Positions 2,264 to 61,303 of a stretch of 62,169 bases of DNA are shown here, in pieces (position 1 is the stretch's first letter; every line of letters begins with the position of its first letter). A program made the translations under genes and the position numbers. This DNA comes from a virus (taxonomy: Duplodnaviria; Caudoviricetes). The notes under the pieces are model-generated. The model made no database searches and was not told the origin of the DNA. It was given only the letters and a program-made list of their open reading frames with translations. The stretch spans positions 1 through 62,169 of the IMG/VR virus record IMGVR_UViG_3300031696_000001; one strand, given 5' to 3'.

Positions 2264-2471
2264 GTTTTTCTAATTCTTTTAATCTATACTCTTGTAATTT
2301 TGACAGTTTACCTGTTGGTCTTTTTACTTCTGAAAATAATACATCACAATTAGGAGGAATTGCAAGGAGATCGGGGATTCCATTCTTATTAGTCTTTATT
2401 AGCTTAAGAACATAGTATCCTTCCGACTCCAGTTGCTTAATCCTCTTTGCTTGTATTTGTTGTTCGGTCAT
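2223..2471 (-). CDS. VRR-NUC domain nuclease (Holliday junction resolvase-like)
   Basis: TEQQIQ...GIPDLLAI...FSEVKRPTGKLSKLQ; typical position next to an SF2 helicase. Confidence 0.9.
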   Translation of the reverse strand: MTEQQIQAKRIKQLESEGYYVLKLIKTNKNGIPDLLAIPPNCDVLFSEVKRPTGKLSKLQEYRLKELEKHGCRTEVYKGGGL

Positions 2472-2641
2472 TTCTTATGTGAACTCTCTGTTTGTCCGCA
2501 GTTAATACACCACCTCTCTTCATCTCCCATAAAATCATCATAAGTGTAAAACATATCGCATTTTTTTGGTTTGGTTAATACTTTAATAGTACCAACACTA
2601 CCTCCTTCTCCTTGTTCTTCTTTTTTTATTCCTTTTTTCAT
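2468..2641 (-). CDS. small hypothetical protein (57 aa, CxxC), below the ORF-track cutoff
   Basis: MKKGIKKEEQ...WCINCGQTESSHKK fills the gap and has an ATGA overlap with the VRR-NUC gene. Confidence 0.6.
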   Translation of the reverse strand: MKKGIKKEEQGEGGSVGTIKVLTKPKKCDMFYTYDDFMGDEERWCINCGQTESSHKK

Positions 2642-2650
2642 AATTATTAT

Positions 2651-34051: not shown

Positions 34052-35158
34052 ATGGAAACAGAAGAAAAATTTATCGTCAAGGACGTTAGTGGGGTTGAAA
34101 AATCCAAAGTAGAGGTTGAAGAGCAGTTACTTAAAGAGCATGAAGAAAAATTTGATCCAGTAAGTAATGAGGATTCAATAGACAAGGTAGATATACCTGT
34201 AGAAGAAACTCCCGTATCAGAGTTAAATGATGCAGACGTTCTTTCTTATATTAAGAATAGGTATGATAAAGATATTGAATCAGTAGATCAGTTGTTTGAA
34301 ACGAAAGAATCAAATGAAGAATTACCTGAAGATGTATCTGCTTATTTTAAATATAAAAAAGAGACTGGTCGTAGTATTCAAGATTTTGTTAAATTACAAC
34401 AGAATTATGATGAAATGGACAGCAACAAATTGTTGTCTCAATATTATTCTCAAACTGAAGAAGGTTTAGATAGTGAGGATATAAAAGACTTAATGGAGGA
34501 TAAGTTTGGTTATGATGAAGATTTAGATGAGCCAAGTGATATTAAGAAAATTGAGAGGGCAAAGAAAAGAGAACTTGTAAAAGCTAAAAAGTTTTTAAAC
34601 GAACAGAAAGATAAATATAACATTCCTCTTGAGTCAAGCGGGAATGGATTATCTGGAGATCAATTAGAAGATTTTAATAGCTATAAAAGTTATGTAGAGG
34701 AATCTAACACTGCAAAAGAAGCACAGAAGAAAAGGTATGATTACTTTTTAAATAAGACTGATGAGGTCTTTAACGATGAGTTCAAAGGTTTTGAGTTCAA
34801 TATCGGAGATAAGAGTATAACCTTTAAACCTGGTGATAAAGATGAGTTGAAAAGTAAACAATCTAATGTGAATAATTTCGTGGATAAGTTCATGGATAAA
34901 GAATCAGGATTGATGAATGACGCTCAGGGATATCATAGAGCTATGTCAGTAGCTATGAATCTTGACAAATTTGCTGAATTCTTTTTTAATCAAGGGATGA
35001 CGGATACTATTGATAATGTTTCTAAAAAATCAAAAAACATTAATATGGATGTACGTCCCACCCCTCAGAATTTCAGTAAAGATGGATTGAAGATTAGAGC
35101 TGTAGGCGATTCGAGCAGTGGTAAAGGACTCAAAATTAGAAGTGCAAAAAAATTATAA
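34052..35158 (+). CDS. putative capsid scaffolding protein
   Basis: Acidic and helical, between portal and MCP. Confidence 0.65.
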   Translation: METEEKFIVKDVSGVEKSKVEVEEQLLKEHEEKFDPVSNEDSIDKVDIPVEETPVSELNDADVLSYIKNRYDKDIESVDQLFETKESNEELPEDVSAYFKYKKETGRSIQDFVKLQQNYDEMDSNKLLSQYYSQTEEGLDSEDIKDLMEDKFGYDEDLDEPSDIKKIERAKKRELVKAKKFLNEQKDKYNIPLESSGNGLSGDQLEDFNSYKSYVEESNTAKEAQKKRYDYFLNKTDEVFNDEFKGFEFNIGDKSITFKPGDKDELKSKQSNVNNFVDKFMDKESGLMNDAQGYHRAMSVAMNLDKFAEFFFNQGMTDTIDNVSKKSKNINMDVRPTPQNFSKDGLKIRAVGDSSSGKGLKIRSAKKL

Positions 35159-35175: not shown

Positions 35176-36627
35176 ATGCCAGTAATCACCCCCCCAGGCT
35201 TTGACTTGCAACCAAGTGGTCAGCAAGTAGCCTTAGCATCAAATTACATTACTAACTTTGATTTTCTTAATCAGTATCTTCCAGATACATATGAAAAAGA
35301 ATTTGAAAGATTTGGTAATAGAACAGTAGCATCATTCTTAAGAATGGTAGGTGCTGAAATGCCTTCAAACTCAGACCTTATCAAATGGGCTGAACAAGGA
35401 AGGTTACACACTAAATACACAGCATGTACAGCTCCAGGAGCTGTAGCAGCAGCTAATGATGTATTTACTATTCCAGGAGCACAAGTAAACCCAGGAGTTC
35501 CAGCATCAAGTGCTCCAGCAAATGGATTTACAGCTATTAGAGTAGGTCAAACAGTTATGATCTCTGATGAGACTGCAGGATCTGTATTAAGTAATAAAGG
35601 TATTGTAACAGCAGTAACATCAGTAGCACCATTTACAGTTTCAGTAGCATTCTATGAGGCAGCAGGTAAAGCTATGTTGCCAGCAGCTACAACAACTATA
35701 TTTATTTATGGTTCTGAATTCCAAAAAGGAACTGAAGGTATGGCTGGATCTATCGAAGCTCAAGACTTTATCTTTGAAAATTCTCCAATTATCATTAAGG
35801 ATACTTACGAAGTAAGTGGTTCTGACATGGCACAAATTGGATGGGTTGAGGTAACTACTGAGAATGGTGGTTCAGGATACTTATGGTACTTAAAATCTGA
35901 GCATGAAACAAGACTTCGTTTTGAAGACTATCTTGAGACTGCAATGGTTGAAGCAGTTCCAGCAGCAGCAGGTTCTGGTGCAGCAGCAATTTTACCAGGA
36001 GCTGTAGGAGGAATGGGTAATAAAGGTTCTGAAGGAGTATTCTTTGTAGTAAACAACAGAGGAAATGTTTGGAATGGAGGTAACCCAGTTGCTCTTGCAG
36101 GATTTGATAATGTAATCCAAAGATTAGATAAGCAAGGTGCTATTGAAGAAAATGTTATTTTCTGTAATAGACAATTCTCATTCGATATTGATGATATGTT
36201 AGCTGCACAAAACTCTTACGGAGCAGGTGGAACTTCATATGGTTTATTTGACAATGACGAAGAAATGGCTTTAAACTTAGGTTTCACAGGATTCCGTAGA
36301 GGTTATGATTTCTACAAGTCTGACTGGAAATACTTAAATGATCCTACAATGAGAGGTGGTTTAACAGGAGGTGCAATCAACGGACTTATGGTTCCAGCTG
36401 GTTCAACTACTGTATATGACCAAATCTTAGGTAAGAACGCTAAGAGACCATTCTTACATGTAAGATACAGAGCTTCTGAAACTGAAGATAGACGTTACAA
36501 AACTTGGATCACTGGTTCAGCTGGTGGAGCAAGAACATCTTCTTTAGATGCAATGACTGTTAATTTCTTATCTGAAAGAGCTGTATGTACTTTAGGTGCA
36601 AACAACTTCTTCTTATTTAGAGATTAA
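35176..36627 (+). CDS. major capsid protein
   Basis: Position, size, strongly biased codons, strong terminator; IKWAEQGRLH, FLSERAVCTLGANNF. Confidence 0.85.
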   Translation: MPVITPPGFDLQPSGQQVALASNYITNFDFLNQYLPDTYEKEFERFGNRTVASFLRMVGAEMPSNSDLIKWAEQGRLHTKYTACTAPGAVAAANDVFTIPGAQVNPGVPASSAPANGFTAIRVGQTVMISDETAGSVLSNKGIVTAVTSVAPFTVSVAFYEAAGKAMLPAATTTIFIYGSEFQKGTEGMAGSIEAQDFIFENSPIIIKDTYEVSGSDMAQIGWVEVTTENGGSGYLWYLKSEHETRLRFEDYLETAMVEAVPAAAGSGAAAILPGAVGGMGNKGSEGVFFVVNNRGNVWNGGNPVALAGFDNVIQRLDKQGAIEENVIFCNRQFSFDIDDMLAAQNSYGAGGTSYGLFDNDEEMALNLGFTGFRRGYDFYKSDWKYLNDPTMRGGLTGGAINGLMVPAGSTTVYDQILGKNAKRPFLHVRYRASETEDRRYKTWITGSAGGARTSSLDAMTVNFLSERAVCTLGANNFFLFRD

Positions 36628-48460: not shown

Positions 48461-48871
48461 ATGAAATTAAATATACAACCACTAAAAAAAACAGACTATG
48501 AAGATATTCTGTGTGGTTGGTGGAGAGATTGGAAATGGACACCTCCTTCTAAAGACTTTTTACCTGAAGATGGGATGGGTGGTTTTATGGTTTATGATGG
48601 TGATATTCCAGTATGTGCAGGCTTTATGTATGTAACTAATTCAAAAGCAGTATGGTGTGACTGGATTATATCTAATAGATTTTATTTAGATAGACAAAAC
48701 AGGAAGGATGGCTTAGAATTATTAGTTCAAACTATAAGTGATAAGGCTGAAGGATTAGGAAAAAAATATATATATGCATTAATAAAAAATAAACCTTTAG
48801 TTAATGTATATAAAAAAGTAGGTTTTATTGAAGGGAGTACCTACACCCATGAAATGATTAAAAAAATATAA
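48461..48871 (+). CDS. GNAT-fold acetyltransferase-like protein
   Basis: PVCAGFMY...LVNVYKKVGF; precedes internal virion genes, as in many podoviruses. Confidence 0.65.
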   Translation: MKLNIQPLKKTDYEDILCGWWRDWKWTPPSKDFLPEDGMGGFMVYDGDIPVCAGFMYVTNSKAVWCDWIISNRFYLDRQNRKDGLELLVQTISDKAEGLGKKYIYALIKNKPLVNVYKKVGFIEGSTYTHEMIKKI

Positions 48872-48872
48872 T

Positions 48873-49562
48873 ATGGCAGCAGTAACAGCAGCAGTAATAG
48901 GAATAGTAGGTTCGGGAGTTTCAGCAGTGCAATCTTTTTCAGCAGCAGCCGATGCAAAAGAAGCATCTACTCAAGCAAATGAAGCAGCAGCAGAGGCAAT
49001 GGCAGACGCTAAACGAAAAGCAGAGAAAGATGAATACTCAGGATTAGCAATTCCCTTAGATGCCTATGAAGCAGAGTTTGAAAATAACTTACAAACTCAA
49101 ACTCAATCTGTAGAAGCTCTTCAAGAAGGTGATGCAAGAGGTTTAGCGGCAGGGGTTGGAGCAATAGGTGCTCAAGCTACAAATGCGGCAGAAGGAACAC
49201 GTATCGAAATGGGTGAGGAAATTTCAGACTTAAATATGATGAAGGCTCAATCTAAAGATTCTATAAACCAACAACTTATTGAGATGGATGTGGCTAATGC
49301 CAGGGAGCAAAACCAAAGAAGAGCAGATTCGGATGCATTTAGAGCACAAAGTATAAACTCTGGAATTAATTCTGTTACAAGTGGTTTACAATCAGCAGCG
49401 GATTTAGTTCCATTATATAAAAATAATAAAAATTTCCAGGCAGATAGTAAAACTTTTAAAAATGCAGATGGAACGCCTGCTAAATTAATGAGTGAAAGAC
49501 AAAATAAAAAAGATTTTAACTTTTACCAACAAGGAAAAACATTTGGGACTCCAATAAAATAA
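48873..49562 (+). CDS. internal virion (ejection) protein
   Basis: Ala/Gln-rich helical protein with hydrophobic N-terminus. Confidence 0.65.
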   Translation: MAAVTAAVIGIVGSGVSAVQSFSAAADAKEASTQANEAAAEAMADAKRKAEKDEYSGLAIPLDAYEAEFENNLQTQTQSVEALQEGDARGLAAGVGAIGAQATNAAEGTRIEMGEEISDLNMMKAQSKDSINQQLIEMDVANAREQNQRRADSDAFRAQSINSGINSVTSGLQSAADLVPLYKNNKNFQADSKTFKNADGTPAKLMSERQNKKDFNFYQQGKTFGTPIK

Positions 49563-49577
49563 TAATAAGATATAAAC

Positions 49578-51491
49578 ATGGCAATACCAAGTAAAAGAAA
49601 TATAGACTTTGATGTTTACGAAAGGCAAGACCCCACAACACAGGTAGATTGGGGTGCACAAGCTACTAAAATTACAAAAAAATTTGAAGGAATTCGTGAT
49701 GAAAGACAGGGGAGAAAAGATCTTTTAGAAAAAAACATTGAAGAGCAGAGGGTAGCTCTTAATGATATTGGTGAATATGATTCTCAAAACCTACGGCAAC
49801 TTGCTTTAAAATCATCTCAACAAAGTGCTGATATGCTTACCAGAAAGGCAGAATTAATGAGGAATGGTAAAATTAAACCTAATGAATTGATGCAATTTAA
49901 ATCTAATCAAAGTGCTGGTTGGACTCTATTTAAAAAAAATGCAGAAAATTGGAATGGAAAGTTTGTAGAATATACAGAAAGAATGAATGCCGTACCGCCT
50001 CTAAGTTCTAAGTTAGAACAGCAATTAGCTCAATCTTTAGCGGGGTTTGGTAATTTAGAAAATATGTCTTATCTTGCTGATGATGATGGTAATATGTCTT
50101 ATGTTAGAACAGATGAAGAGGGAAATATTCTTCCAGGGGAATCTATGAGTGCTAACGAACTAACAAACCTTTTAAATCAAAAGATTGATAACTACGATTC
50201 TGTAGCTGCAGCAAAGAAGGCGGGAGAGGAAATTGGTACTATAGTTAATGATACTCTTACTCAAAATGGTATAAGAGTTGATATTGAATCTTTACAAAAG
50301 AGTAAAGCAACGGCTGACTTTTTAGGATCAGAAGAAGCTGCAAAAGTATTAAGAACATTCGCTGAAACAATGACTGCAGTTCCTCAAAACTTAGCGGTTA
50401 TGATGACACAAAATGTTAAGATTCCTAATACTGATACAGTATATGAAGGAGATTATGGTGGAGAATTACATGATGCTTGGGCTAAAGAAAATTCTGGTAA
50501 GGATCAAAGCTTAAACCCTTATATAGCAATGAGGATGAAAAGCGGTACTTATGTACCAGATGTTACTAAAGAGCAAGAAGCTGTAGCTACCGAGTATGCT
50601 GAAGGTTTAATAAGATATACTCTTAACATTAAGAAAACTATAAAAACTTCGAACAGTCAGGTAAGAGGTAAAACTGGAGCTGAATATGAAGAAGAAAAGG
50701 ATAATAAAGAAATACGTAGTACAGGTGTTCTTTTAAATGAATATGTGACTGGGGATATAAATACAGCTAATGCTGCTGGTAATGCTATTGTATTAAAATA
50801 TAATAAAGAAAAAGATAAGGATTCTCCAGTTATGGAGAGCTTTAGAAGAGTAGATAGGAAAGCAACTCAATTGGATGTGGATAAAGGTTATGCTGATGAA
50901 GTAGGGCAGGATATTATAGGATCTTATGAAATAAAAATTAAGGATATGATTCTTGATCCACTGGATGCTTATGATGATGATGGCAACCAACTTAGTGTTG
51001 AAAATGCTATAACAACATTATGGAAAGAAGCAGGTTTAAAAGGTGAACCAACTGATTATTTGAATGATAAAGATAATGAAATCGGAGGGTCTTTAGGTTC
51101 TGGTAATGCTGGGGGTAAGGGTAAACGAAAGGAAAGTAAGTATAATCGAACTCCAGTAGATCCAGCAACGGGAGAAAGAATAGAAATGGAGGATTGGAAT
51201 ACTATAGCATCAAAACATAGCGGAAGAAAGATACGGCATCTAAAACTAAAATTTGACGATTTAATAGCCTCAAGAGGATTTCTGCCACCCGCTTTAAAAG
51301 ATTCTGTTAAATCAATAGAATCAGTGGATGGTCAATTAGTTATCACTATTGGGAAAAGTGAGATTAAAATAGATGATTATGAGAATGTAATAGGTAGTAA
51401 GAATAGGATTTTAATTCAAAAAATACAGGATACTATTGAAAAAGAAAATAAAAGATATAACAAAGGAGGTGGTGGAGGCGAATTAGATTAA
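49578..51491 (+). CDS. internal virion (cargo) protein
   Basis: 637 aa, helical, between the small and giant cargo genes. Confidence 0.6.
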   Translation: MAIPSKRNIDFDVYERQDPTTQVDWGAQATKITKKFEGIRDERQGRKDLLEKNIEEQRVALNDIGEYDSQNLRQLALKSSQQSADMLTRKAELMRNGKIKPNELMQFKSNQSAGWTLFKKNAENWNGKFVEYTERMNAVPPLSSKLEQQLAQSLAGFGNLENMSYLADDDGNMSYVRTDEEGNILPGESMSANELTNLLNQKIDNYDSVAAAKKAGEEIGTIVNDTLTQNGIRVDIESLQKSKATADFLGSEEAAKVLRTFAETMTAVPQNLAVMMTQNVKIPNTDTVYEGDYGGELHDAWAKENSGKDQSLNPYIAMRMKSGTYVPDVTKEQEAVATEYAEGLIRYTLNIKKTIKTSNSQVRGKTGAEYEEEKDNKEIRSTGVLLNEYVTGDINTANAAGNAIVLKYNKEKDKDSPVMESFRRVDRKATQLDVDKGYADEVGQDIIGSYEIKIKDMILDPLDAYDDDGNQLSVENAITTLWKEAGLKGEPTDYLNDKDNEIGGSLGSGNAGGKGKRKESKYNRTPVDPATGERIEMEDWNTIASKHSGRKIRHLKLKFDDLIASRGFLPPALKDSVKSIESVDGQLVITIGKSEIKIDDYENVIGSKNRILIQKIQDTIEKENKRYNKGGGGGELD

Positions 51492-51501
51492 ATAAATAAA
51501 T

Positions 51502-54500
51502 ATGGATAATTTAGAAAAATTATATAACGTTTTAAAAAGGGATGGGTTTATTACTAAATCTTTTGATGAATTCGTTGATCAAGCAACTCAGGATTCTGAC
51601 TATCAGGATAAAATATTTAATGTAGTAAGTCGTGAAGATTTGTTTACTGGAAGTCCAGATGAGTTTTCAAAAAAATATTTTTCAGAACTTGCTACATCTC
51701 CTGTTGAAGAGGTAAAAAAAAAAGACGATTCTCAACCTACTGGGGAAGAGGAAGTTATGGTATCCGATACAGAAGTGGTGGACGAGCGTGGATCATCGGA
51801 GCCTTCTGTTCAGATAAATTCTGAAGAAGAAATTGTTGATCCTGAAACTTTAGGTGAAATAGAACAAATTCAAGAAGTTCCAAATAGATTTGGAGCGGAC
51901 ACTCCCAAAGAAGAGATGTTTCTACATGATGATGAAATTGCTATTGGCGTTCAGCCAGGTGAGGAAGATACTACTATTGAAGAAATATTTGGTAAAAATG
52001 AATTCACTGATTTCTTTGGTGATATGTGGAGAGCTGGAGCTCAAGGGCAAGCTCAAGGAGGGACTGTAGATGAATCATTAGAACTTTTAATGAAAGGAGG
52101 AAATGCTTCTCAGAATGATATAGAAGAATTCTTAATTTCATATCAAGCAATGCAAAGGGCTGGTGTATCTGATGAAATGAATGCCTTCAATAAAATATAC
52201 CAAAAAGATGGCGGAGGTATATTAGGTTTTATAAAAGGAGTTGCCGCTAACCCAACCGTTGTACCTCAATTATTTATCTCATCTGTAAGTGCTATGGTAA
52301 ACCCTACTGTACTTGCAGCGGCTACAGCAGGTGCTGTAGCGGGTAGTGTTATTCCAGGAGCGGGTACTATAGCTGGTGGAATGTTTGCAGCAGGTACTAC
52401 ATTAGAAACAGCCCTTACATTTGGTGAGCTTTTAGAGGAGGCTCTTGATGGTGAGCCAATGACAAACGCTAACATTCGTTCTGTACTTGAAGATGCTGAA
52501 AAAATGAGTAGTATAAGAATGAAAGCACTGGGGCGTGGTTTAGCTATTGGTGCTATTGATGGTTTAACAGGTGGTCTTGCAACTAAGTTAACTACAAGTG
52601 TTGCTAAGGCTACATCAAAAGCTGGTAAAACTGTATCTCGATTAACAGCTGCAACAGCTGGCGGTACACTTGAGGCTGTAGGTGGATCAACAGGTGAAGT
52701 TGTTGGTAGATTAGTTGCGGGTCAAGAAATGGATGTTGCTGAAATATTATTTGAAGGTGTTGCTGGTACTGCTACAGCTCCGATTACTGTAGGTGCTGGA
52801 TTACTTAATGCTGCAAGAAAACCTCCCGTTTATGAAATGAATAAAGGCCCTGCTACAAGAGCAGATATAATAGAGCTTTTAGAAAGTGATGATACTGATG
52901 CTATATTAGATGCTGAAGTTAGTGTTGAAAATGATCCTGAATTAAGTAAACAAGTTGAGGCTGCTAAGAAAAAAATATTAGATAAAAAAGTTTTAAATAG
53001 AGATTTAAAAGATGCTGGTATTACAGATCAAAATGCTATAGATGAAATGACTGCTTTAGAAGAAGAGGCAGAAGCTTTAAAGGGAAATAATACAAGAGCA
53101 GGGAAGAGAAGATTAGCTGAAATTAATCAACGTATTGATGATATACTTGATACGGCAGCAGTAGAACAAGAGGTTGAGGTTACAATCGAAGATAAAGTAA
53201 CTACAGAGTCTGAAAGATTAGCGGCATTAGAAGAAACTTTAGAGGGTAAAGATTTAGAAGTATTGCAACTGATGAGGGATAAAAATAAGAGTCAGGATAT
53301 GATTGATAATCATATTAAAAATAAAGCTAAAAATACTGGTAAAGGAAATCAACTATCAACAAAATTTAAAGCCGAAGACACATTACTAAATCCTGAAGGA
53401 AAATCATTTGCTGAATTAGTATCAGCTTATTCTTTAATATTTGAAGGTAAAAACCTACCAGTAAAAACAATACAAGATATATTAGCGGATACTCCTGATT
53501 TAAGAGATTTAAATTTAGGAAATACTAATAGGTTTTATCCTCTTCAACAAGCTATTCTAAATTTTGAATCTTATCAAAATAAAAAAAATAACCAAAAAAC
53601 TAAACAAGATGCCATTCAAGAGGTAAGCGTAGAAGAACAAGAGGTTGAAATACAAAAAGAGAGGGATGATTATGAAAAAAAATATTTTACCCTTGATGAA
53701 GAAAATCAAAAAAATAAAGATAAAGGAGAGACTTATTCATACTCTGCAGAAAACCTTAACGAAGGATTTACTTTAGAAGAAGCTCAGGAAGCAAAAAGGG
53801 TAATGGAAGCTAAACATGATAATTTATTAAAAACTAAAACTGAACAAAATGCCATTCAAGAGTCAAGCACAGAGAGCGTGGATGTACAAGAACCTACCGA
53901 AAGTAGCACAGAAGTGGGAGACGGAAACACCCAAAGGAACGCTACCCAAGAAAGTATCGAGAGTGAAGCAGATACTGAAACGCAATCGCAAGAGGAAGTA
54001 GAAACGGTTACTGAAAATAGTGATGGAACTTTAAGTATACCTAATCCAAAAACAGGAAAGGTTGCTAAGTTAAAAGGTAAAAAGATAGGGGAAACATCAA
54101 ATCTTTATATTTCAGATATGATATCTGAAAACATAGATCCTTCATATGAAGGTAATACAGAAGCTAAAACTAAGCAAGAGAATTATATAACAAAAATTGC
54201 AATTAAAGCAGCTAAATCTATTGCTAAGTTATTGCCTAATACAAATATAATATTACATAGTACAGAGGCTTCATATAATAAGGGAGCTGGTCAAGTATCT
54301 CAAATATATACAAGAAAAAAGGGATCACGTGGGGTTTTTAAGCCAACCACAAACGATATTCATATTAATATGACTCATGCTAATGCCAAGACAATAGCAC
54401 ATGAAATATTTCATGCTTTACTTTATAATAAGTTTAAGAGTGATGAGAGGATAGGTATTGTTACTTATAAAATGGTTGAGTCTATTAAGAAAAAAATTAC

Positions 54501-57500
54501 AGATCCAAAATTAAAGAAACAACTACAGAAATTTAGTGATAATTATACTGAAACTCCACAGTTTCAAGATGAAGAATATCTTGCTGAATTAATTGGTACT
54601 CTTGCAGATAATTATAAATCATTAAAAAGGCCTGAAAAAACTATAGTTCAGAAGTGGTTAAATAAATTAAAGAATATAATGGGTATGGAGGCAGAGGTAA
54701 TAGATACTGATGCTGATACATTAGATTTATTAGCTACTATTGCTGAGAATATTAAGGAAGGTAAAGAAATTACAGAGTCTGATATTTCTCAATTAGATAC
54801 GTTTGAACAAGGAGAAGGCGGTGAAGTAGGTGTTTTAAACTTTTCAGATAAAGAATCTAAAATAAACCCAGCCCCAAAAGTCGAGTCAGATAGTAGGCCA
54901 TTTTCAAGCCTTATAAAAAATAAAGATATTAGTGACTTTGATGGTCAAAACTTTGTTACCAATATGTATGACTTTACTACAGCTGGTATAGTTGATATTG
55001 GTAATGGTATTACTTTACAGTTGGAGGGCGGTAAAAGTTATGTTCCATTAATGATGAGTAGAAAAGGGTTAAAAATAGGTGATGTATCAAATCTTGCTGC
55101 CTTTAACACTAAGTCTCAAGCTGAAGGGTTTATTAGAAACTCACAAGAGGGTAACGCTAAACTATTTATGCCTCACTCTGGAACATTAGAAGGGTCTTGG
55201 CAGTTCCAACAATCTATATTTGAACAGATTATTAAAGTTATTTTAGACAATAAGATTGTAACAAACAAAGAATTAATATCATCTCTTAGTAAGGGTCTTG
55301 TAAATAAAAAGGGAAAAGAAATAAAAGAGTGGAGAATATTTAAGGAAAATTACAAGAAGGCTACAGGTAAAGACATAAATAACCTTGATTCTTTTGTTAA
55401 AGATCCGTTGCAATTAGTTAAATTATTAGATATTGAAAACAACTACTCTCCAGATTTAAGAAAAAGATTTAACTCATTGGTAATCTCTATCAAAAAATTT
55501 AAAGATGCGACTGGAGTAACAAGTAAAACAGACTTTGCTTTAAAGATAATGGATCCTCTTAATGAAGGTATAGAAGCGTTTGATCTTATGTCCGTTATAG
55601 AGTTTGATAATACAACTTTTGAAATAAGTAAGCCTAAAAAAGGAGATGTTGATTATCATCCATCTTTTGCGTGGACTATTAAAGCAAAAATCAAAGGTAT
55701 ATACCAACCAACTAATTTTCAGAAGTCTTATGATATAACTGATTCATATGTTAAATATAATCAAGAGGGACCTTCAAAATCTACAAGAGATAATAAGTTA
55801 GAAAGAGAATATGGATTAGCGTTAAAAGGAAAAAAGATTAACGATAAAGGAAAGGTTGTAAAGCGAAGTAAATCAGAGATTGGGGGTGAATTTTATGAGG
55901 GAACATACCCAGAGTTTCAAGAATATAAGTTTCAAGTATCTAACGTAGCAAGTAGTGCAGGGTCTATACCAAAGGTAGCTAAAGTAAATAATACAACTGA
56001 TAAAGCACAGAAACTAACAACTGAAGAGGTATATTCTGAAATAGGAATGACTACTGATGAGGTTAAGGCTTGGAAAAAGGATAACAATAAAAGTATTAAA
56101 ATGCCTCATCCTAAGGCAGCTCTTGAGGCAGCTAATAGTTACTCTAATGGAGATATAACTCTTAATGAATACAATGAAATTATTCAAAAAGAAATGCCTA
56201 TTACTCCTTACACTAAGGTTCCAAAGCCTGCTACTATAAAGGATGTAGTTTTAGCATTACAGCCTAATAAAGTTCAGAAAGGAATTATAGGATTAACAAC
56301 AGAAATTAAGGATGGAGAAAAAGTATCATCTCGTTTAGATATACCATCATATCAATCTCATGGTATATATGTAGATACTATTCATGGTCCTAAAGGTAAA
56401 GGAGTACTTGGATACGGGCAGACAGCTGTTCTTAAAAATGTAGAATTTACAAGTAATGCTAAAAAAGCATTAGGGGTAGCTAAAGGTACTCAATCAAAAT
56501 CACCATTTGCCGTTATGGATGGGTCGTATGTTAATGAAAGTACAGAGAGTGCAACTAAGAGAGCTCAAGAAGCTCTTAATAGTAATGAGTGGGTTCAGGT
56601 AGGATTTAATCCTTATCGTCAAGCATCATTCTATAATAAAGCAGATAGCAGGCCTGTTACATCAGCTGCTGAAATTATACAAGTTGGACCATTAGTAATG
56701 GCTAAAGGAGTGAAGTATGGTAAGCCTTTAAAAATATCACCAGATGGAAATGAAAGATTTCAATTAGTGGATGATTATTCTGTAAAAGAAACAGGTCAAG
56801 GAGAGTTTACATTAATGAAGGGAATTAGAAGGGCGGGAGAGATGTCTATTGCTGAATTACAATCTGATAAACCAAGTGTATCCCAAGTGTACATCAAAAA
56901 ATTTGATCAAGGGAAAGGATTAGCTCCTGATATGTATAGAGAGATAGCTAATATATTAGCTCTTAAAGGAAAAATATTAACATCTTCTAAGTTCACTAAT
57001 AATGCTTCACAAGGAGTATGGAAAAGATTAGTTAAAGATGGTGATGCAATAGTTATAGGCAGTCGTATTGATGCTGAGGGTAAAAAAAGAGATCTATATT
57101 CTATGCTTCCTACAGATCCTTTATTAGAAGGAGTATCTAATGAACGTGAGCAAAAAACAACTCCTGATAGTATTGAGGGATATAATAGAATGATTAAGGA
57201 GGTTGAAAATATTATATCTAAATCTGAAAAACGTGGGGTAAAGTTTAATGATATTTCTAAGAATGTAATTAATTACATCCAAGGATCTAAGGTTTATGAA
57301 ATAGCTACTGACATCCAGCGTGAGGATATTATAAGGGATGTGAGAGCAAAATTTGGTATAAAAGAAAAAGCAGCTCCATCAGTAAAGAATGTAATAGGTA
57401 AGGCAATGTCTGTTCTTTTTGGAGAAACAAAAGAAATAAAAAAGTTTACTGTAACAGAGAAACAATTATTAATACAAAGACTTAAGCAATTAAACGAAGG

Positions 57501-60500
57501 AGCTAAAACAGCTAAGAAATCTTTTATGAAGGCCAGTAAAGAACTTGCAGATGGTGTATCTGAAATGGTTTCTATTGGTAAAATATCTACCAAACAAGCT
57601 GCTGCTGTTATAAAAAGATTCAGTAAGGTTAATATGTTTAATGAGGCATCTATAGAAAGATTTGTAGACTATATGGCTAAAGTATTTGCTAATGCTGAAT
57701 ACGCTGAACAGATTGCATTTGCAAGAAAGAAAGTTAAACAGGCTAATAAAAACATCAGAACAAAACTTGGTATAGCAACTGACTTAATTAATCCACTACA
57801 AAGATTATTTAGTATTGATCCAACATTAATTCCTGACAGTGTATTTAAAAAATACCTATCACTTGTAGAGGTGTTTGGGGAAAGAGCAACAGTTCTTACA
57901 TTAGAGCAAAAGCAAGAAACTCTTAAGGAAGTTCAAGATGTACTTGATAAAATAAATGAGGAGCAAAGTCAAGCTGAGGAGATGGCTTTGATATTTGCTG
58001 ATTATAAAAATAAAGTATTCAACGATGATGGTAAACTAAACTACGCTGAGACTATTAAAGCTATGTTAGAAGACGGAAAAATTGATGAAGACTCCGCAGC
58101 TATTATGCGTAAGTATAAGAGTGATATTTTACCTCAAATTGATGCAGTAGAAAAAACTGATGAGCAAATTCAAGAAGAAAAGGATGAGGTTATAGAGGAG
58201 TTTAATAATATAATTATGGATGTCTCTAATCTTCCAAGTCAAGATGAAAGAAATTTAGCTCGTAGATTAAATAAGTTAATAGATACAGTGGCTCTTGATA
58301 AGCTTAATCTTACTCAACTTAAGAACTTACTTAAGGTTATTGATAATATTAATAATGGATACTTGCCTCACTATTCTCAGTTGTTAGTAGAACAAATGAA
58401 TTCAATAAACGATTCAGAAAAATTAACTGACGCTATAGGTAACGCAAAACCATTACTAATTTCTAAATTTATAGCTAAGATTAAAACACTTTTAACAAAA
58501 AAGAAAGATGCTTATTTAGAGATGATAAGAAGAAATCCTTTATATAATATAGACCAATTATTTGGTAATTGGAAAGGGAAAGAAATTTTTGATTCTTTAT
58601 TTTCTAAGGTTGCCGAGGGAGTAGCGACTTATAATTCTGAGTACAATAAAATTCAGAAAAAAATAGAAAAATCTATTAATGATGTATCTAAGTCATTTAA
58701 AGGTAATCCAGCTAAAACATTAGAATCATCATTTAAACAAATGGCTTATATGATTCAGTTAGAGTTTCAATCTAATCCAGATAGCAAACAAGTTAATCCT
58801 GCATCTGAGTATATGAAAAAGACTATAAAAGCTATAAGAGATGGGAAATCTGCTTTATACACAGAGAATGATGCTCAAGTTCTTGAGAAAATACTAAAAG
58901 ACTTTAGTGATAAAGACGGAAATATTAGTTTAGAAAAGTTAGATAAATCATTTAATAATGCTGAAAAAAACTCTATAAAAACTGTTAGAGAAATAAACCA
59001 ATCTCTTTTACCTGTAGCTGAATACACATCAGCTATTATAAGAGGAGATAAAATAAACCCACTAACAAATTACATTCACTTACCTGTAATGAATGAATCA
59101 AAGCCTATAGATGTTACAGCTGATGTTGTTAGAAGTTTTGGTGAATCTCTTAATCCATCTACAAAAGCAAAGTCTTTAATAGAAAGAACTGGGAAGGTTT
59201 CTCCTATCAATTTTAATATATATTCATCGGTTCAAAAAGGATCTAAAATGGTATTGATGGATAGACACCTAACAGAACCTATTAGAACAGCAAGACGTAC
59301 TCTTAATAGGACAGAATCTACATTAGAAACAGAAAATGGAGGAACAATTCCAGTAGAACAAAGAAAGGTGTTTAATGCTATTAAGGCTGCTTTTTTAGAA
59401 TCTTCAGATAATCTTTTACAAAATACATTTACAGAAACTACTATAGCTGATGATGTTGTTAATTATATTAGTAAGCAAGGATATAGATCTGTTCTTGCTG
59501 GTACCCCCAGATTTATGGCTGAACTTACTTCTAATATAGGATTTGCATTAATGATTAATCCTAAGGCATTTAAAACAGGTATTAATAATAGAGGGTTTAT
59601 TTTATCTGCTGAAGCTCCATCTGTAATGCAGAATGTAGGTAGTAAGCAAACAGGCAGAATATTTTCTGGAGATACATTATCTGGTAAAATGATAGACACT
59701 AATATACTTAACCAAAGTGCAGGTACAGAAAATGGCAGAACCAGGGGGATTATAGCTAATAAGATTCAACAAATATATAATCTATCATTAAAGAAATATA
59801 TAAACTTTGTAGAGTTAACTGCTGACGCTTTAATATCTACTCCTGATAAATTAGTAATGAGGCCTATATGGTTTGGGGATTTTGCTAATGTATTTAAGGC
59901 TGAGGCAGGTGTTGAGGTGGACTTCAATAAGATAGCTGCTAATGATGAGGCTTATATGAAAGAGTATTCTGAAGCAATACAGAAGGCTAAAGATGCTGCC
60001 GATGAAACATCTGTTAAGACTGGAGCAACTGATAATCCATTTATGAATGTACTAAAAGGTAAATCAAAACCTAATCAAACAGCTTTTCTTAGAGCTTTCA
60101 ATAACTTTAATGGTTTTATGATGAATTTTTTACTATTTGAATATGTGACAGCAAGAACAGGTCTTTATGCCGCTATGGGTAATGGTACTATTACAAAAAA
60201 GCAAGGGATAGCAACTTTAGCTGCAGTAACAACTCGTATGATAACATATACTCTACTAACTCAAATGCTTGGGTCTGGGTTAATCGGACTTCTGTTTGGT
60301 AGTGATGAGGAAGAAGAAAAAAAATCTATAGGAAAACAGATTGGACAAGCTATTTCTTCTGCATTCACATCATTATTAATTGGAAGAGACTTTGGAAATG
60401 CTGTTAAATCAATACTAAATCAAGGAGTTGAAGTGTTTAACGAAGAGTATCTTGACTTTCTAAGAGAAGGTGAGTATGATCCGTATAAAGATAGTATTCA

Positions 60501-60885
60501 GTACACTATAGTTCCTAAGAAAGCTAAGGAAGATTTTAGAGGTACAGGTATTGGCGATATTCTTCTTAGACTTACAGGGTCATTTGGTCCTGCTTTAAAG
60601 ACACTTGATTTAATAACTAAAAAATATACAGAGAGTGTTAAAAAAACACCAGCTGCTCGAATGAGACAGGTTAAAGAGATAACTCAAAGAATACCATTAG
60701 AGGTATTTGGTCACTTAGGATTAATTCCTCTATATAAAGACATTAGAAAAGTAGTTATGAAAAAACTTTATAAAGATCTCAGAAACTCAGATAAAAAAGT
60801 TTCTAAAAAATCTAAATCTAAATCTAAATCAAAAACATATGATAGTGATATGTTTGATGATTCATCTGGAATGTTTGATGATTAA
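51502..60885 (+). CDS. giant internal virion / polyvalent cargo protein
   Basis: 3127 aa; Gly/Ala hydrophobic segment, HEIFH...EEYLAE zincin motif, QGKGLAPDMY GNAT-like motif. Confidence 0.75.
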   Translation: MDNLEKLYNVLKRDGFITKSFDEFVDQATQDSDYQDKIFNVVSREDLFTGSPDEFSKKYFSELATSPVEEVKKKDDSQPTGEEEVMVSDTEVVDERGSSEPSVQINSEEEIVDPETLGEIEQIQEVPNRFGADTPKEEMFLHDDEIAIGVQPGEEDTTIEEIFGKNEFTDFFGDMWRAGAQGQAQGGTVDESLELLMKGGNASQNDIEEFLISYQAMQRAGVSDEMNAFNKIYQKDGGGILGFIKGVAANPTVVPQLFISSVSAMVNPTVLAAATAGAVAGSVIPGAGTIAGGMFAAGTTLETALTFGELLEEALDGEPMTNANIRSVLEDAEKMSSIRMKALGRGLAIGAIDGLTGGLATKLTTSVAKATSKAGKTVSRLTAATAGGTLEAVGGSTGEVVGRLVAGQEMDVAEILFEGVAGTATAPITVGAGLLNAARKPPVYEMNKGPATRADIIELLESDDTDAILDAEVSVENDPELSKQVEAAKKKILDKKVLNRDLKDAGITDQNAIDEMTALEEEAEALKGNNTRAGKRRLAEINQRIDDILDTAAVEQEVEVTIEDKVTTESERLAALEETLEGKDLEVLQLMRDKNKSQDMIDNHIKNKAKNTGKGNQLSTKFKAEDTLLNPEGKSFAELVSAYSLIFEGKNLPVKTIQDILADTPDLRDLNLGNTNRFYPLQQAILNFESYQNKKNNQKTKQDAIQEVSVEEQEVEIQKERDDYEKKYFTLDEENQKNKDKGETYSYSAENLNEGFTLEEAQEAKRVMEAKHDNLLKTKTEQNAIQESSTESVDVQEPTESSTEVGDGNTQRNATQESIESEADTETQSQEEVETVTENSDGTLSIPNPKTGKVAKLKGKKIGETSNLYISDMISENIDPSYEGNTEAKTKQENYITKIAIKAAKSIAKLLPNTNIILHSTEASYNKGAGQVSQIYTRKKGSRGVFKPTTNDIHINMTHANAKTIAHEIFHALLYNKFKSDERIGIVTYKMVESIKKKITDPKLKKQLQKFSDNYTETPQFQDEEYLAELIGTLADNYKSLKRPEKTIVQKWLNKLKNIMGMEAEVIDTDADTLDLLATIAENIKEGKEITESDISQLDTFEQGEGGEVGVLNFSDKESKINPAPKVESDSRPFSSLIKNKDISDFDGQNFVTNMYDFTTAGIVDIGNGITLQLEGGKSYVPLMMSRKGLKIGDVSNLAAFNTKSQAEGFIRNSQEGNAKLFMPHSGTLEGSWQFQQSIFEQIIKVILDNKIVTNKELISSLSKGLVNKKGKEIKEWRIFKENYKKATGKDINNLDSFVKDPLQLVKLLDIENNYSPDLRKRFNSLVISIKKFKDATGVTSKTDFALKIMDPLNEGIEAFDLMSVIEFDNTTFEISKPKKGDVDYHPSFAWTIKAKIKGIYQPTNFQKSYDITDSYVKYNQEGPSKSTRDNKLEREYGLALKGKKINDKGKVVKRSKSEIGGEFYEGTYPEFQEYKFQVSNVASSAGSIPKVAKVNNTTDKAQKLTTEEVYSEIGMTTDEVKAWKKDNNKSIKMPHPKAALEAANSYSNGDITLNEYNEIIQKEMPITPYTKVPKPATIKDVVLALQPNKVQKGIIGLTTEIKDGEKVSSRLDIPSYQSHGIYVDTIHGPKGKGVLGYGQTAVLKNVEFTSNAKKALGVAKGTQSKSPFAVMDGSYVNESTESATKRAQEALNSNEWVQVGFNPYRQASFYNKADSRPVTSAAEIIQVGPLVMAKGVKYGKPLKISPDGNERFQLVDDYSVKETGQGEFTLMKGIRRAGEMSIAELQSDKPSVSQVYIKKFDQGKGLAPDMYREIANILALKGKILTSSKFTNNASQGVWKRLVKDGDAIVIGSRIDAEGKKRDLYSMLPTDPLLEGVSNEREQKTTPDSIEGYNRMIKEVENIISKSEKRGVKFNDISKNVINYIQGSKVYEIATDIQREDIIRDVRAKFGIKEKAAPSVKNVIGKAMSVLFGETKEIKKFTVTEKQLLIQRLKQLNEGAKTAKKSFMKASKELADGVSEMVSIGKISTKQAAAVIKRFSKVNMFNEASIERFVDYMAKVFANAEYAEQIAFARKKVKQANKNIRTKLGIATDLINPLQRLFSIDPTLIPDSVFKKYLSLVEVFGERATVLTLEQKQETLKEVQDVLDKINEEQSQAEEMALIFADYKNKVFNDDGKLNYAETIKAMLEDGKIDEDSAAIMRKYKSDILPQIDAVEKTDEQIQEEKDEVIEEFNNIIMDVSNLPSQDERNLARRLNKLIDTVALDKLNLTQLKNLLKVIDNINNGYLPHYSQLLVEQMNSINDSEKLTDAIGNAKPLLISKFIAKIKTLLTKKKDAYLEMIRRNPLYNIDQLFGNWKGKEIFDSLFSKVAEGVATYNSEYNKIQKKIEKSINDVSKSFKGNPAKTLESSFKQMAYMIQLEFQSNPDSKQVNPASEYMKKTIKAIRDGKSALYTENDAQVLEKILKDFSDKDGNISLEKLDKSFNNAEKNSIKTVREINQSLLPVAEYTSAIIRGDKINPLTNYIHLPVMNESKPIDVTADVVRSFGESLNPSTKAKSLIERTGKVSPINFNIYSSVQKGSKMVLMDRHLTEPIRTARRTLNRTESTLETENGGTIPVEQRKVFNAIKAAFLESSDNLLQNTFTETTIADDVVNYISKQGYRSVLAGTPRFMAELTSNIGFALMINPKAFKTGINNRGFILSAEAPSVMQNVGSKQTGRIFSGDTLSGKMIDTNILNQSAGTENGRTRGIIANKIQQIYNLSLKKYINFVELTADALISTPDKLVMRPIWFGDFANVFKAEAGVEVDFNKIAANDEAYMKEYSEAIQKAKDAADETSVKTGATDNPFMNVLKGKSKPNQTAFLRAFNNFNGFMMNFLLFEYVTARTGLYAAMGNGTITKKQGIATLAAVTTRMITYTLLTQMLGSGLIGLLFGSDEEEEKKSIGKQIGQAISSAFTSLLIGRDFGNAVKSILNQGVEVFNEEYLDFLREGEYDPYKDSIQYTIVPKKAKEDFRGTGIGDILLRLTGSFGPALKTLDLITKKYTESVKKTPAARMRQVKEITQRIPLEVFGHLGLIPLYKDIRKVVMKKLYKDLRNSDKKVSKKSKSKSKSKTYDSDMFDDSSGMFDD
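53849..54001 (+). CDS. nested (+1 frame) 50-aa basic protein MPFKSQAQRAWMYKNLPKVAQKWETETPKG...
   Basis: Open frame with an A-rich start context; resembles small phage proteins of the MPFKSxAQRxxM...AxxW type. Confidence 0.65.
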   Translation: MPFKSQAQRAWMYKNLPKVAQKWETETPKGTLPKKVSRVKQILKRNRKRK

Positions 60886-61303
60886 AAATTATTTTAAATA
60901 TCTATTTAAAATATTAAAGTATTATGATGTGCAACCTTTACTATTATTTTGGTGCGTATCTGATATATTAAACAATCAAGTTCTTTGGACGGACTATAAG
61001 TATTGGTTTGATTTAGGTCAGCCTAATACATATTATTTATATTGTGCTTACTTGGTGGTTAGTTTAGGAGTTTTTTTATCTATGTATTCTATTAAGAGAT
61101 GTAGTTATTTTGTATCGGCTTATCTAATATTAACTTTATTTGCTACTGTTAGATATGTAGTTAGTTTAGTTTCTAATCCTGAATCTACATTTGACTTATC
61201 TGTATTAAGAGCATTAATAATTACATTCTTTTATTTATTAATATGGGTTTGGATATGGGTTAAATTACAAAGAGAAATGTTAGATAGAAAAATGAAAAAA
61301 TAA
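60878..61303 (+). CDS. multi-pass membrane protein (likely start 60878)
   Basis: About four hydrophobic helices. Confidence 0.7.
   Translation: MIKNYFKYLFKILKYYDVQPLLLFWCVSDILNNQVLWTDYKYWFDLGQPNTYYLYCAYLVVSLGVFLSMYSIKRCSYFVSAYLILTLFATVRYVVSLVSNPESTFDLSVLRALIITFFYLLIWVWIWVKLQREMLDRKMKK

What the first reader, a model, noticed from the sequence alone, without database searches (positions are those of the whole stretch)
53849..54001. Overprinted small basic gene inside the giant cargo gene
Seen: in the +1 frame, MPFKSQAQRAWMYKNLPKVAQKWETETPKGTLPKKVSRVKQILKRNRKRK-stop (50 aa), after an A-rich start context (TTATTAAAAACTAAAACTGAACAAA). The main frame here is a low-complexity acidic linker with atypical codons. 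The peptide resembles small stand-alone phage proteins beginning MPFKSxAQR (from memory, not searched). Inference: true dual coding, a basic peptide encoded over an acidic linker.
Basis: partly seen in the sequence, partly recalled or inferred. Interest (0 to 1): 0.7.

Follow-up and report, generated by a model that had tools for sequence, protein, structure and literature searches.

The report
Small basic gene nested inside giant phage gene
A 50-residue, very basic protein of a widespread but unstudied phage family is encoded in a second reading frame inside a 3127-residue virion gene of a marine phage, and relatives keep it there, in another structural gene, or as a separate gene.

Summary
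Its length alone is unremarkable, because half of the shuffled genes give one as long. Homology makes the case.

- **Family:** the peptide belongs to about 3900 clusters that carry an N-terminal MPFKSxAQ domain. No Pfam model covers it, and the link to phrog_1375 (unknown function) is weak.
- **Independent sample:** 67 relatives were picked by another part of the giant gene. In 46 the ORF sits in the same +1 frame with an ATG start.
- **Other locations:** some relatives have it directly after the giant gene's stop codon. Others have it nested, again +1, in the gene between portal and capsid. There is one copy per genome.
- **Selection:** inside the overlap the giant frame's third codon position varies least. 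Stand-alone copies keep the peptide, but their host-equivalent frame is full of stops.
- **Cultured example:** Flavobacterium phage elemoF carries it without annotation.

So this is true dual coding, but the small gene is the older partner. Its function (a virion-associated, nucleic-acid-binding protein) is inferred, not shown.

The parts
53849..54001 (+). Nested small gene: 50 codons plus stop. The protein has 16 K+R and 2 D+E. It is predicted to form an N-terminal helical hairpin (residues 6-15 and 17-26) followed by an extended basic tail.
   Evidence: AF2 with a 90-sequence alignment, mean pLDDT 85.7. Homologues. Conserved in the same frame in 46 of 67 independently sampled relatives.
53824..53848 (+). 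A-rich leader before the ATG, the likely translation initiation region of the nested gene. It lies inside the giant gene's coding sequence.
   Evidence: 70% A over -20..-1, in the top 0.8% of 133 out-of-frame ATGs in the giant gene. In 29 unique leaders from relatives, A is 62-100% at 9 of the 10 positions -14..-5; the exception is -10, 28% A. The last 13-20 bases of the leader travel with the module between host genes. They are unpaired in the minimum-energy fold; z = +1.54. No Shine-Dalgarno-like run is visible. Function as an initiation site is inferred.
51502..60885 (+). Host gene: 3127-aa giant protein, the last large gene of the structural module. HExxH motif at residue 967 (54400-54414).
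   Evidence: phrog_32588 (unknown function) over residues 2335-3120, E 9.3e-139. The C-terminal part is 24.5-24.9% identical to the 'structural protein' of 68 Flavobacterium elemo phage records. Module order is terminase, portal, 368-aa protein, virion structural proteins.
53848..54003 (+). Codons 783-834 of the giant gene: the acidic linker read over the small gene (15 D+E, 1 K+R). This is a GC island: bases 53849-54001 are 47.7% GC against 32.7% for the whole gene.
   Evidence: This frame stays open across the small gene in all 46 embedded relatives. The third frame has stops in 30 of 37.
53596..53628 (+). Decayed partial second copy of the module: the same leader, then ATGCCATTCAAGAG, then TAA. 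It reads MPFKR-stop at 53609-53626 in the +1 frame. The giant frame stays open across it.
   Evidence: Local alignment of 33 bases with 29 identical to 53835-53867. blastn also paired this stretch with the module start of scaffold-position hosts. No such remnant was found in the other 67 loci.
34052..35158 (+). 368-aa gene between portal (31561-33996) and a virion structural protein (35176-36627), i.e. the scaffold position. It is the alternative host of the module in relatives but is empty here.
   Evidence: phrog_16786, unknown function. It is 34-41% identical to the 369-419-aa hosts of L150, L151, L153-L157, L041, L076 and L081. In alignment A3 the window's protein lacks the DA[IV]QE... segment.

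Best explanation
**What it is.** 53849-54001 is a real protein-coding gene nested out of frame (+1) in the acidic linker of the giant virion gene.

**How it is made (inferred).** Ribosomes start at its own ATG, which sits behind an A-rich, unstructured leader. This fits hosts that do not use Shine-Dalgarno sites. The cultured relatives infect Flavobacterium.

**The product.** A 50-residue protein with an N-terminal two-helix hairpin (the conserved MPFKSxAQ domain) and a strongly basic tail.

**How the arrangement arose.** The gene is the older partner. It belongs to a widespread phage family that normally stands alone or forms the N-terminus of longer proteins. In this phage group a module of roughly 110-150 bp (the gene plus the last 13-20 bases of its leader) is read through by a host structural gene. 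The host is the giant gene, or in one clade the gene between portal and capsid. In other relatives the gene sits directly after the giant gene's stop codon.

**Selection.** Both frames are maintained. The small frame dominates the substitution pattern, and the host frame is kept free of stops by codon choice.

**Function (inferred from charge, position and fusion partners).** A late protein linked to the virion or its assembly. The hairpin would dock on a head or cargo component and the tail would bind nucleic acid.

**Confidence.** The figure of 0.85 is for the nested gene being a functional coding gene. The proposed function is held at roughly one in three.
For: **Homology**
- 39 small proteins reach E <= 1, the best at 1.2e-9.
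- 491 loci in viral contigs were confirmed by tblastn.
- A profile finds 3948 cluster representatives at E <= 1e-3 and 512 at <= 1e-10. In 132 of the best 150 the domain starts at residue 1.

**Independent sample**
- 67 loci were picked with residues 230-420 of the giant protein.
- 46 have the ORF nested at offset 1 with an ATG start.
- 1 has it 4 nt after the giant gene's stop.
- 1 has a broken giant frame.
- 19 have none, of which 3 are truncated.

**Other locations**
- Of 15 whole records searched because the giant gene lacked the ORF, 7 carry it at offset 1 in the scaffold-position gene.
- 10 of 10 genomes checked have exactly one copy.

**Selection**
- Entropy at small-frame positions 1/2/3 is 0.826/0.629/0.981 bits. 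The giant frame's third position is therefore the least variable.
- In the non-overlapping part of the giant gene, positions 1/2/3 give 1.119/0.879/1.421.
- Changes synonymous in the small frame but non-synonymous in the giant frame: 34 of 40 possible were seen. The reverse class: 26 of 54.
- Mean pairwise amino-acid identity is 0.617 in the small frame and 0.449 in the giant frame.
- 11 of 11 stand-alone copies have 1-11 stops in the host-equivalent frame yet keep the peptide and a net charge of +10 to +17.

**Start site**
- The leader is A-rich and conserved.

**Cultured phage**
- NC_055853.1 has a 42-aa copy at 52379-52507, offset 1 in its giant CDS (48718-59802). It is not annotated there.
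Against: - No direct evidence of translation exists. The region appears only in contigs of four RNA libraries from two studies. That does not show transcription, let alone a separate product.
- ORF length is not significant on its own.
- Two near-complete relatives (100% and 95% complete) have no detectable copy, so the gene is dispensable or replaceable.
- The function is unsupported by any characterised homologue. There is no Pfam family, no related solved structure, and phrog_1375 is 'unknown function'; the window's own peptide reaches it only at E 0.25.
- One fusion partner is an IF3 C-terminal domain, which points to translation rather than the virion.
- Contexts of the wider family are mixed.
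- An acidic host frame shifted by one base tends to read as basic, so the tail's charge in the embedded copies alone would not be evidence.
- Many loci are near-duplicates: 38 unique cores among 46 loci (45 relatives plus the window).
Confidence: 0.85

Rival explanations
1. Fossil. The module is a swallowed small gene that is no longer expressed. The peptide-like frame survives only because the DNA is young or is constrained by the giant protein's linker.
For: There is no expression data for the small frame. Two near-complete relatives lack it. The window itself holds a dead partial copy at 53596-53628, so decay does happen.
Against: The ORF is intact with an ATG start in 46 of 46 embedded copies, at a mean nucleotide identity of only 0.68 over the core. 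Variability follows the small frame, with the giant frame's third position least variable. The synonymous-in-small class is enriched, 34/40 against 26/54. The dead copy shows what relaxed selection looks like: a stop after five codons.
Confidence: 0.07
2. Frameshift product. Ribosomes translating the giant gene slip into the +1 frame and make a truncated N-terminal fragment with a basic C-terminus. There is no independent small protein.
For: It would use the same open frame. Frameshift products are common in phage structural genes (general knowledge, recalled).
Against: In 80 loci the small frame is closed 0-25 codons upstream of the ATG in the nested copies and the copies directly after a giant gene; the widest gaps, 34-56 codons, are L049, L079 and L080. 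It is closed directly before the ATG in several. The window has 6 open codons upstream. The ATG and the M-P-F-K-S start are kept exactly as in stand-alone genes, where M is residue 1.
Confidence: 0.03
3. The conserved entity is a nucleic-acid signal (RNA structure, promoter or packaging site), not a protein.
For: The module is a compositional island: 47.7% GC against 32.7% for the gene.
Against: There is no Rfam match at E <= 1. The fold is weaker than that of shuffles: z = +1.54, and 191 of 200 shuffles fold at least as well. Conservation has three-base periodicity in the small frame. Homologues in unrelated phages share the peptide, not the DNA.
Confidence: 0.02
4. It is a real nested gene, but the product works in translation or RNA binding during infection (a small ribosome or RNA binder) and is not in the virion.
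For: One family member is the domain fused to IF3_C, E 1.5e-40. The tail is extremely basic. No family member is annotated as a virion protein.
Against: In this phage group the gene is always inside or directly behind late structural genes. Other fusion partners are InPase and DUF5661. [quoted passage not shown] The single IF3_C fusion could be an assembly or gene-call chimera.
Confidence: 0.15

Closest known systems
Two-component spanin genes (lambda Rz/Rz1 type)
   Same: A small gene lies wholly inside a larger phage gene in the +1 frame. The same pair of genes occurs in related phages in embedded, adjoining or separate layouts. Those three layouts are named in the title and abstract listing of PMC6139136; the lambda details are recalled.
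   Different: There is no homology. The small protein here has no cysteine, so it cannot have a lipobox. It is a basic soluble peptide. The hosts are virion or assembly genes, not lysis genes. The module sits in either of two unrelated host genes.
Overprinted genes of small viruses (Microviridae E, K; many RNA viruses)
   Same: Two proteins come from one stretch of DNA in different frames. One frame is ordered and the other is low-complexity, and codon usage is skewed in the overlap (general knowledge; PMC3494269 and PMC6195259 were seen only as listings).
   Different: There the new gene arises de novo inside an old one. Here the nested gene is the old, widespread one, and the novelty is the host's linker reading. 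The genome is a 62-kb tailed phage under no obvious size pressure.
phrog_1375 (PHROGs, unknown function)
   Same: 11 of 36 relatives of the peptide match it at E <= 0.01, the best at 3.6e-5.
   Different: The window's own peptide reaches only E 0.25 and the L001 copy does not match at all. The family has no function attached.
Small basic internal proteins of virions (T4 internal proteins with their capsid-targeting leader; adenovirus core proteins VII and mu)
   Same: A functional analogy only, and recalled: short, very basic proteins made late, carried inside the capsid with the DNA, with an N-terminal part used for targeting.
   Different: No sequence or fold similarity was found. Packaging of this protein is not shown.
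Pfam DUF3008 (PF11450)
   Same: It was the nearest Pfam-bearing cluster in the language-model search, with score 0.86 and the family on 15% of members. These are also small phage proteins.
   Different: 0 of 90 family members match it at E <= 1, and the window's peptide does not match at E <= 10.

Membership tests
Unnamed MPFKSxAQ N-terminal domain family of phage proteins | Significant sequence similarity to family members found independently of the window | tested here: met
   phmmer E-values from 1.2e-9. tblastn identities of 53-86% in 80 loci. A profile finds 3948 representatives.
Unnamed MPFKSxAQ N-terminal domain family of phage proteins | The domain begins at residue 1 with M-P-F-K-S, followed by the conserved Q8, P17, W23, L32 and P33 | tested here: met
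   M1, P2, S5, Q8, W23 and L32 are invariant, and F3, K4, A7, P17 and P33 are at least 90% conserved, in 36 sequences. The window's peptide has all of them.
Unnamed MPFKSxAQ N-terminal domain family of phage proteins | Existence as an independent gene without an overlapping host frame | tested here: met
   13 of 80 loci are stand-alone. In 11 of 11 unique copies the host-equivalent frame has 1-11 stops.
phrog_1375 | Match to the family HMM | tested here: inconclusive
   Window peptide E 0.25. 11 of 36 relatives match at <= 0.01.
Pfam DUF3008 (PF11450) | Match to the family HMM | tested here: not met
   No match for the peptide at E <= 10, nor for any of 90 relatives at E <= 1.
Nested out-of-frame gene pair (functional dual coding) | The ORF lies wholly inside another gene, in another frame, and is conserved there in relatives | tested here: met
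   Offset 1 in the window, in 46 of 67 independently sampled loci, and in a cultured phage.
Nested out-of-frame gene pair (functional dual coding) | Purifying selection on the nested frame that the host frame does not explain | tested here: met
   Codon-position variability, variant classes and stand-alone copies.
Nested out-of-frame gene pair (functional dual coding) | A separate protein product is made | not testable with these tools
   Only contigs from RNA libraries cover the region. No proteomic or ribosome-profiling data were available.
Spanin o-component (Rz1-like) | Signal peptide with a lipobox cysteine | tested here: not met
   The 50-aa sequence has no cysteine and no hydrophobic leader.
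Programmed frameshift product | The alternative frame is open from a shift site inside the upstream coding region | tested here: not met
   In-frame stops lie 0-25 codons before the conserved ATG in the nested copies and the copies directly after a giant gene (34-56 in L049, L079 and L080); the window has 6.
Packaged giant 'polyvalent'/cargo protein (the host gene) | Giant multidomain protein in the portal-terminase late module with a metallopeptidase-like motif | tested here: inconclusive
   The gene lies in the structural module, has HExxH at residue 967, and is homologous to an elemo phage 'structural protein'. No peptidase or effector HMM matched. Packaging is not shown.

The most novel reading that the evidence does not exclude
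A pre-existing small virion gene, with its own start signal, has been swallowed by two different structural genes and relocates among three sites as a dual-coding cassette of about 150 bp. The sites are inside the giant gene, inside the scaffold-position gene, and behind the giant gene. This is overprinting in reverse: big genes grow across a small one. In addition, its N-terminal hairpin would be a general tag that loads proteins into phage heads. Here the load is a DNA-binding basic tail; elsewhere it is enzymes such as InPase.
Probability: 0.2. Interest if true: 0.85.

Novelty: new variant of a known kind. Interest (0 to 1): 0.7.

Why it matters
- **Missed annotation.** Gene callers forbid nested genes. 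This one is absent from the annotation of both GenBank/RefSeq records examined (MW202828.1 and NC_055853.1), although it is conserved across a large group of marine Flavobacteriia-type podophages. The window's own sequence is held by 14 DNA runs from 13 studies.
- **A clean natural example.** An old gene is overlapped by a newer host-gene frame, and all three layouts (nested in host A, nested in host B, separate) are available for comparison. That makes codon-level constraints of dual coding measurable.
- **A tractable family.** It points to a family of about 3900 clusters with an invariant N-terminus and no known function. A cultured system (Flavobacterium sp. BAL314 and the elemo phages) is available to study it.
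- **Why proteomics may have missed it.** By eye, its tryptic peptides are 7 residues or shorter, so standard virion proteomics would probably miss it.

Tried and rejected
- **ORF length as evidence:** rejected. 51-52% of shuffles give 50 aa or more.
- **Pfam:** none for the peptide, the L001 copy or 90 relatives.
- **PHROGs:** one weak hit for the window's peptide, phrog_1375 at E 0.25, and no hit for the L001 copy.
- **blastn:** 2 kb around the ORF against phages gave no match.
- **tblastn of the giant N-terminal domain against phages:** no match.
- **tblastn of P0043 against phages:** no match.
- **tblastn of P0001 against phages:** only E >= 3 hits. The best one proved real only after inspection; the Mycobacterium and other hits were not followed.
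- **PDB sequence search:** only chance-level hits at E >= 0.16.
- **Foldseek against PDB:** nothing at E <= 0.001.
- **Foldseek against BFVD:** only uncharacterised phage proteins.
- **ESM Atlas:** viral 'hypothetical protein' clusters plus a DUF3008 lead that failed the HMM test.
- **Complex prediction of the peptide with the window's 368-aa scaffold-position protein:** verdict 'no answer', score 0.00. This is not evidence either way.
- **Rfam and RNA folding:** nothing.
- **RNA-library contigs:** they cover the region but cannot show transcription, strand or ends. Parts without cover mean nothing.
- **Contexts of stand-alone copies in unrelated phages (L022, L052, L053):** mixed. Neighbours included a glycosyltransferase, HNH, tail sheath 2 kb away, and large terminase. 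No clear functional signal.
- **Second ATGCC.TTYAAR matches in L029, L099 and L103:** they look like chance.
- **Literature searches:** MPFKS; overprinted/embedded phage genes; polyvalent proteins; elemo/Elemovirus; spanin layouts; overlapping genes in tailed phages. None describes this gene or arrangement. Only PMC5512222 was read in passages; the others were seen as listings. Its external supplementary files, which list the domains found, were not seen and might name this N-terminal domain.
- **Not searched:** L104's record was not searched for a second-site copy.
Full report
**Observation.** The window is a complete 62,169-base virus record. It lies inside ORF 51502-60885 (3127 aa) at offset 1.

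The quoted A-rich leader is there. The giant frame over the overlap is acidic, with 15 D+E and 1 K+R in 52 codons. It also uses unusual codons: GC3 0.38 against 0.18, and mean relative synonymous frequency 0.40 against 0.53.

The ORF's length proves nothing. Half of 2000 synonymous-codon shuffles of the giant gene contain an alternative-frame ATG ORF of 50 aa or more.

**Homology.** Pfam has no model for the peptide. PHROGs gives only phrog_1375 at E 0.25.

The large protein collection holds 39 small proteins (41-65 aa) at E <= 1, the best at 1.2e-9. Most are unnamed; four carry only a 'hypothetical protein' or blank label. A scan of viral contigs found 598 pattern matches, of which 491 were confirmed and the best 80 kept.

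A profile of 36 diverse members (A1) finds 3948 cluster representatives at E <= 1e-3 and 512 at <= 1e-10. In 132 of the best 150 the match starts at residue 1, in proteins of 45-761 aa.

Twenty of the longer members were scanned against Pfam:
- three had clear C-terminal domains: InPase with a glycine zipper, DUF5661, and IF3_C;
- one had weak AAA hits;
- sixteen had nothing;
- no Pfam model covers the N-terminal domain itself.

Eleven of the 36 relatives match phrog_1375, the best at 3.6e-5. So the remembered resemblance is real, and the family is large, old and uncharacterised.

**Is the frame kept in relatives?** The 80 loci found with the peptide fall into these classes:

| Layout | Loci |
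|---|---|
| Nested at offset 1 in an open frame of 800 aa or more | 58 |
| Nested at offset 1 in a frame of about 400 aa | 3 |
| Directly after the stop of a frame of 800 aa or more | 10 |
| Otherwise stand-alone | 3 |
| N-terminus of a 201-224-aa protein | 5 |
| Inside a 316-aa frame at offset 2 (L053) | 1 |

That sample is biased, because it was selected for the peptide. I therefore drew a second sample using residues 230-420 of the giant protein, which is independent of the peptide. It gave 67 loci. An HMM of the peptide run against all six frames gave:
- 46 loci with the ORF nested at offset 1, each starting with ATG. Two of these are cut by the end of the locus;
- L092, with the gene starting 4 nt after the giant gene's stop;
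- L112, with the giant frame broken just upstream;
- 19 loci without it, of which 3 have less than 1.4 kb of downstream sequence.

Of the 16 informative negatives, I searched 15 whole records. Seven carry one copy elsewhere. In all seven, and in L041, L076 and L081, the copy is nested at offset 1 in the acidic N-terminal part (starting at host residue 33-62) of a 369-419-aa protein.

That protein is 34-41% identical to the window's ORF 34052-35158. This ORF lies between the portal and a virion structural protein, and in the window it lacks the module (A3).

The other eight records have no copy. Six are 43-87% complete. Two are 95% and 100% complete.

Ten of ten genomes checked, five with the nested copy and five with the stand-alone copy, have exactly one copy, as does the window.

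On a tree of the giant gene's N-terminal domain, the scaffold-position state falls in one well-supported clade: 7 of 8 rows, SH-aLRT 95. The giant-nested state (47 rows) is spread over the rest.

**Selection.** I used 37 unique nested copies without indels in the first 30 codons. Mean column entropy at small-frame codon positions 1/2/3 is 0.826/0.629/0.981 bits. The giant frame's third position is therefore the least variable.

Across 140 gap-free codons of the non-overlapping part of the same giant genes, positions 1/2/3 give 1.119/0.879/1.421 bits, the normal pattern.

Other measures agree:
- Mean pairwise amino-acid identity is 0.617 in the small frame and 0.449 in the giant frame, at 0.681 nucleotide identity.
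- Of single-base changes from the consensus that are synonymous in the small frame but not in the giant frame, 34 of 40 possible are observed.
- Of the reverse class, 26 of 54 are observed.
- Of changes non-synonymous in both frames, 83 of 164 are observed.
- The third frame has stops in 30 of 37 copies.

The giant frame has none in the 46 nested copies. In 11 unique stand-alone copies the frame equivalent to the host's contains 1-11 stops. An example is TTT AAA for Phe-Lys where nested copies use TTC AAG or TTC AAA. Yet the peptide and its net charge of +10 to +17 are kept.

Two conclusions follow. The peptide is what selection sees. In nested copies codon choice is additionally constrained to keep the host frame open, and that is dual coding.

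The basic tail is a property of the family. It is not a by-product of an acidic host frame.

**The module.** Nucleotide similarity between giant-nested and scaffold-nested copies is confined to about -20 to +130 relative to the ATG, at 68-93% identity. The flanks are unrelated. Two examples are L001 against L150 at 82.5% over 126 nt, and the window against L041 at 81.3% over 107 nt. What is shared is the gene plus the end of its leader.

Because only one of the two alternative frames of the gene is open, any viable insertion must be at offset 1. This explains the constant frame.

The window also holds a decayed partial second copy at 53596-53628. It has the same leader and first 14 bases, then TAA. 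No such remnant was seen in the other sampled loci.

The stand-alone copies behind giant genes sit after the homologue of the window's giant C-terminus: L037 and L070 are 45-47% identical to residues about 1900-3093. The move to an internal linker was therefore a relocation. It was not a simple fusion of two neighbouring genes.

Since the family is far wider than this phage group and the host-frame reading is confined to it, I infer that the small gene is the older partner.

**Expression signals.** The window's leader is 70% A over -20..-1. In 29 unique leaders, A reaches 62-100% at 9 of the 10 positions -14..-5; the exception is -10 at 28% A, mostly G.

The RNA around the start is no more structured than shuffles (z = +1.54), and the leader is unpaired in the minimum-energy fold. 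No Rfam family matches.

Cultured relatives infect Flavobacterium. That Bacteroidota start translation at A-rich, Shine-Dalgarno-less leaders is my recollection, not a result here.

Contigs from four RNA libraries of two studies cover the ORF; one spans 53509-53997 with no differences. This does not show transcription.

**Structure and function.** AlphaFold2 with 90 sequences gives a helical hairpin (residues 6-15 and 17-26) and an extended tail, at mean pLDDT 85.7. Foldseek finds only uncharacterised phage proteins of the same family and nothing in the PDB.

Three observations bear on function:
- the charge (16 K+R in 50 residues);
- the constant placement inside or right behind late structural genes;

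From these I infer a virion- or assembly-linked protein whose hairpin docks on a head component and whose tail binds nucleic acid. I hold this at roughly one in three.

The IF3_C fusion keeps a translation- or RNA-binding role alive. The complex prediction with the scaffold-position protein gave no verdict.

**Comparison and novelty.** The nearest known arrangement is the two-component spanin gene pair, which also occurs embedded, overlapped or separated (PMC6139136, listing and abstract). There is no homology and no lipobox here, and the hosts are virion genes.

Unlike classic overprinting, the nested gene is the old one. The gene is not annotated in MW202828.1 or in the RefSeq record of the cultured phage vB_FspP_elemoF_6-3D. 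There a 42-aa copy lies at 52379-52507, offset 1 in the giant CDS 48718-59802. My seven literature searches found no description of it.

I rate it a new variant of a known kind, with interest 0.7. Confidence that this is a functional nested coding gene is 0.85. Confidence in the proposed function is much lower.

Noticed in passing
window 53596-53628 (+): A decayed partial duplicate of the nested gene's leader and first codons. It reads MPFKR-stop in the +1 frame at 53609-53626, about 240 nt upstream of the intact copy. The giant frame stays open through it.
   Followed up: partly
window 54400-54414 (giant protein residue 967): An HExxH motif (AHEIFH) about 130 residues after the nested gene. 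L001's giant protein has similar HEFGH motifs. No peptidase HMM matched, so a metallopeptidase domain is only a guess.
   Followed up: no
P0047 (128 aa): A family member in which the MPFKS domain is fused to a full IF3 C-terminal domain (PF00707, E 1.5e-40). It is either a real phage IF3-like chimera or an assembly artefact.
   Followed up: partly
L112 (about 7371), L028, L030: In three relatives the giant frame is interrupted close to the nested gene, while near-identical relatives (for example L143) are intact. These could be sequencing errors or real splits of the giant gene at the module.
   Followed up: no
L001 6001-6132; L133; L150, L151, L155, L156; L159 1501-1629: A sub-type of the peptide has a two-residue insertion and two cysteines (KACY...KWDCKKW). 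It occurs both in giant-nested and in scaffold-nested copies, and in the cultured elemo phage. Peptide type therefore does not track location, which hints at exchange of the module between lineages.
   Followed up: partly
window 53849-53888, RNA run X16 record 5: A 692-nt contig from an RNA library matches only the first 40 nt of the nested gene and then continues with unrelated, GC-rich sequence on both sides. It is probably the homologous gene of a different phage.
   Followed up: no
window 60839-61303 (+): The next ORF (154 aa, no PHROG match) starts 47 nt before the giant gene's stop, in another frame. This is an ordinary end overlap and was not examined further.
   Followed up: no
L152 5001-5219 (Streptomyces phage FlowerPower gene 48): A 72-aa hypothetical protein with the same N-terminal domain (70% identity over 27 residues). 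It lies between a gene annotated 'peptidase' and the holin, at the end of the late region of an actinophage.
   Followed up: no
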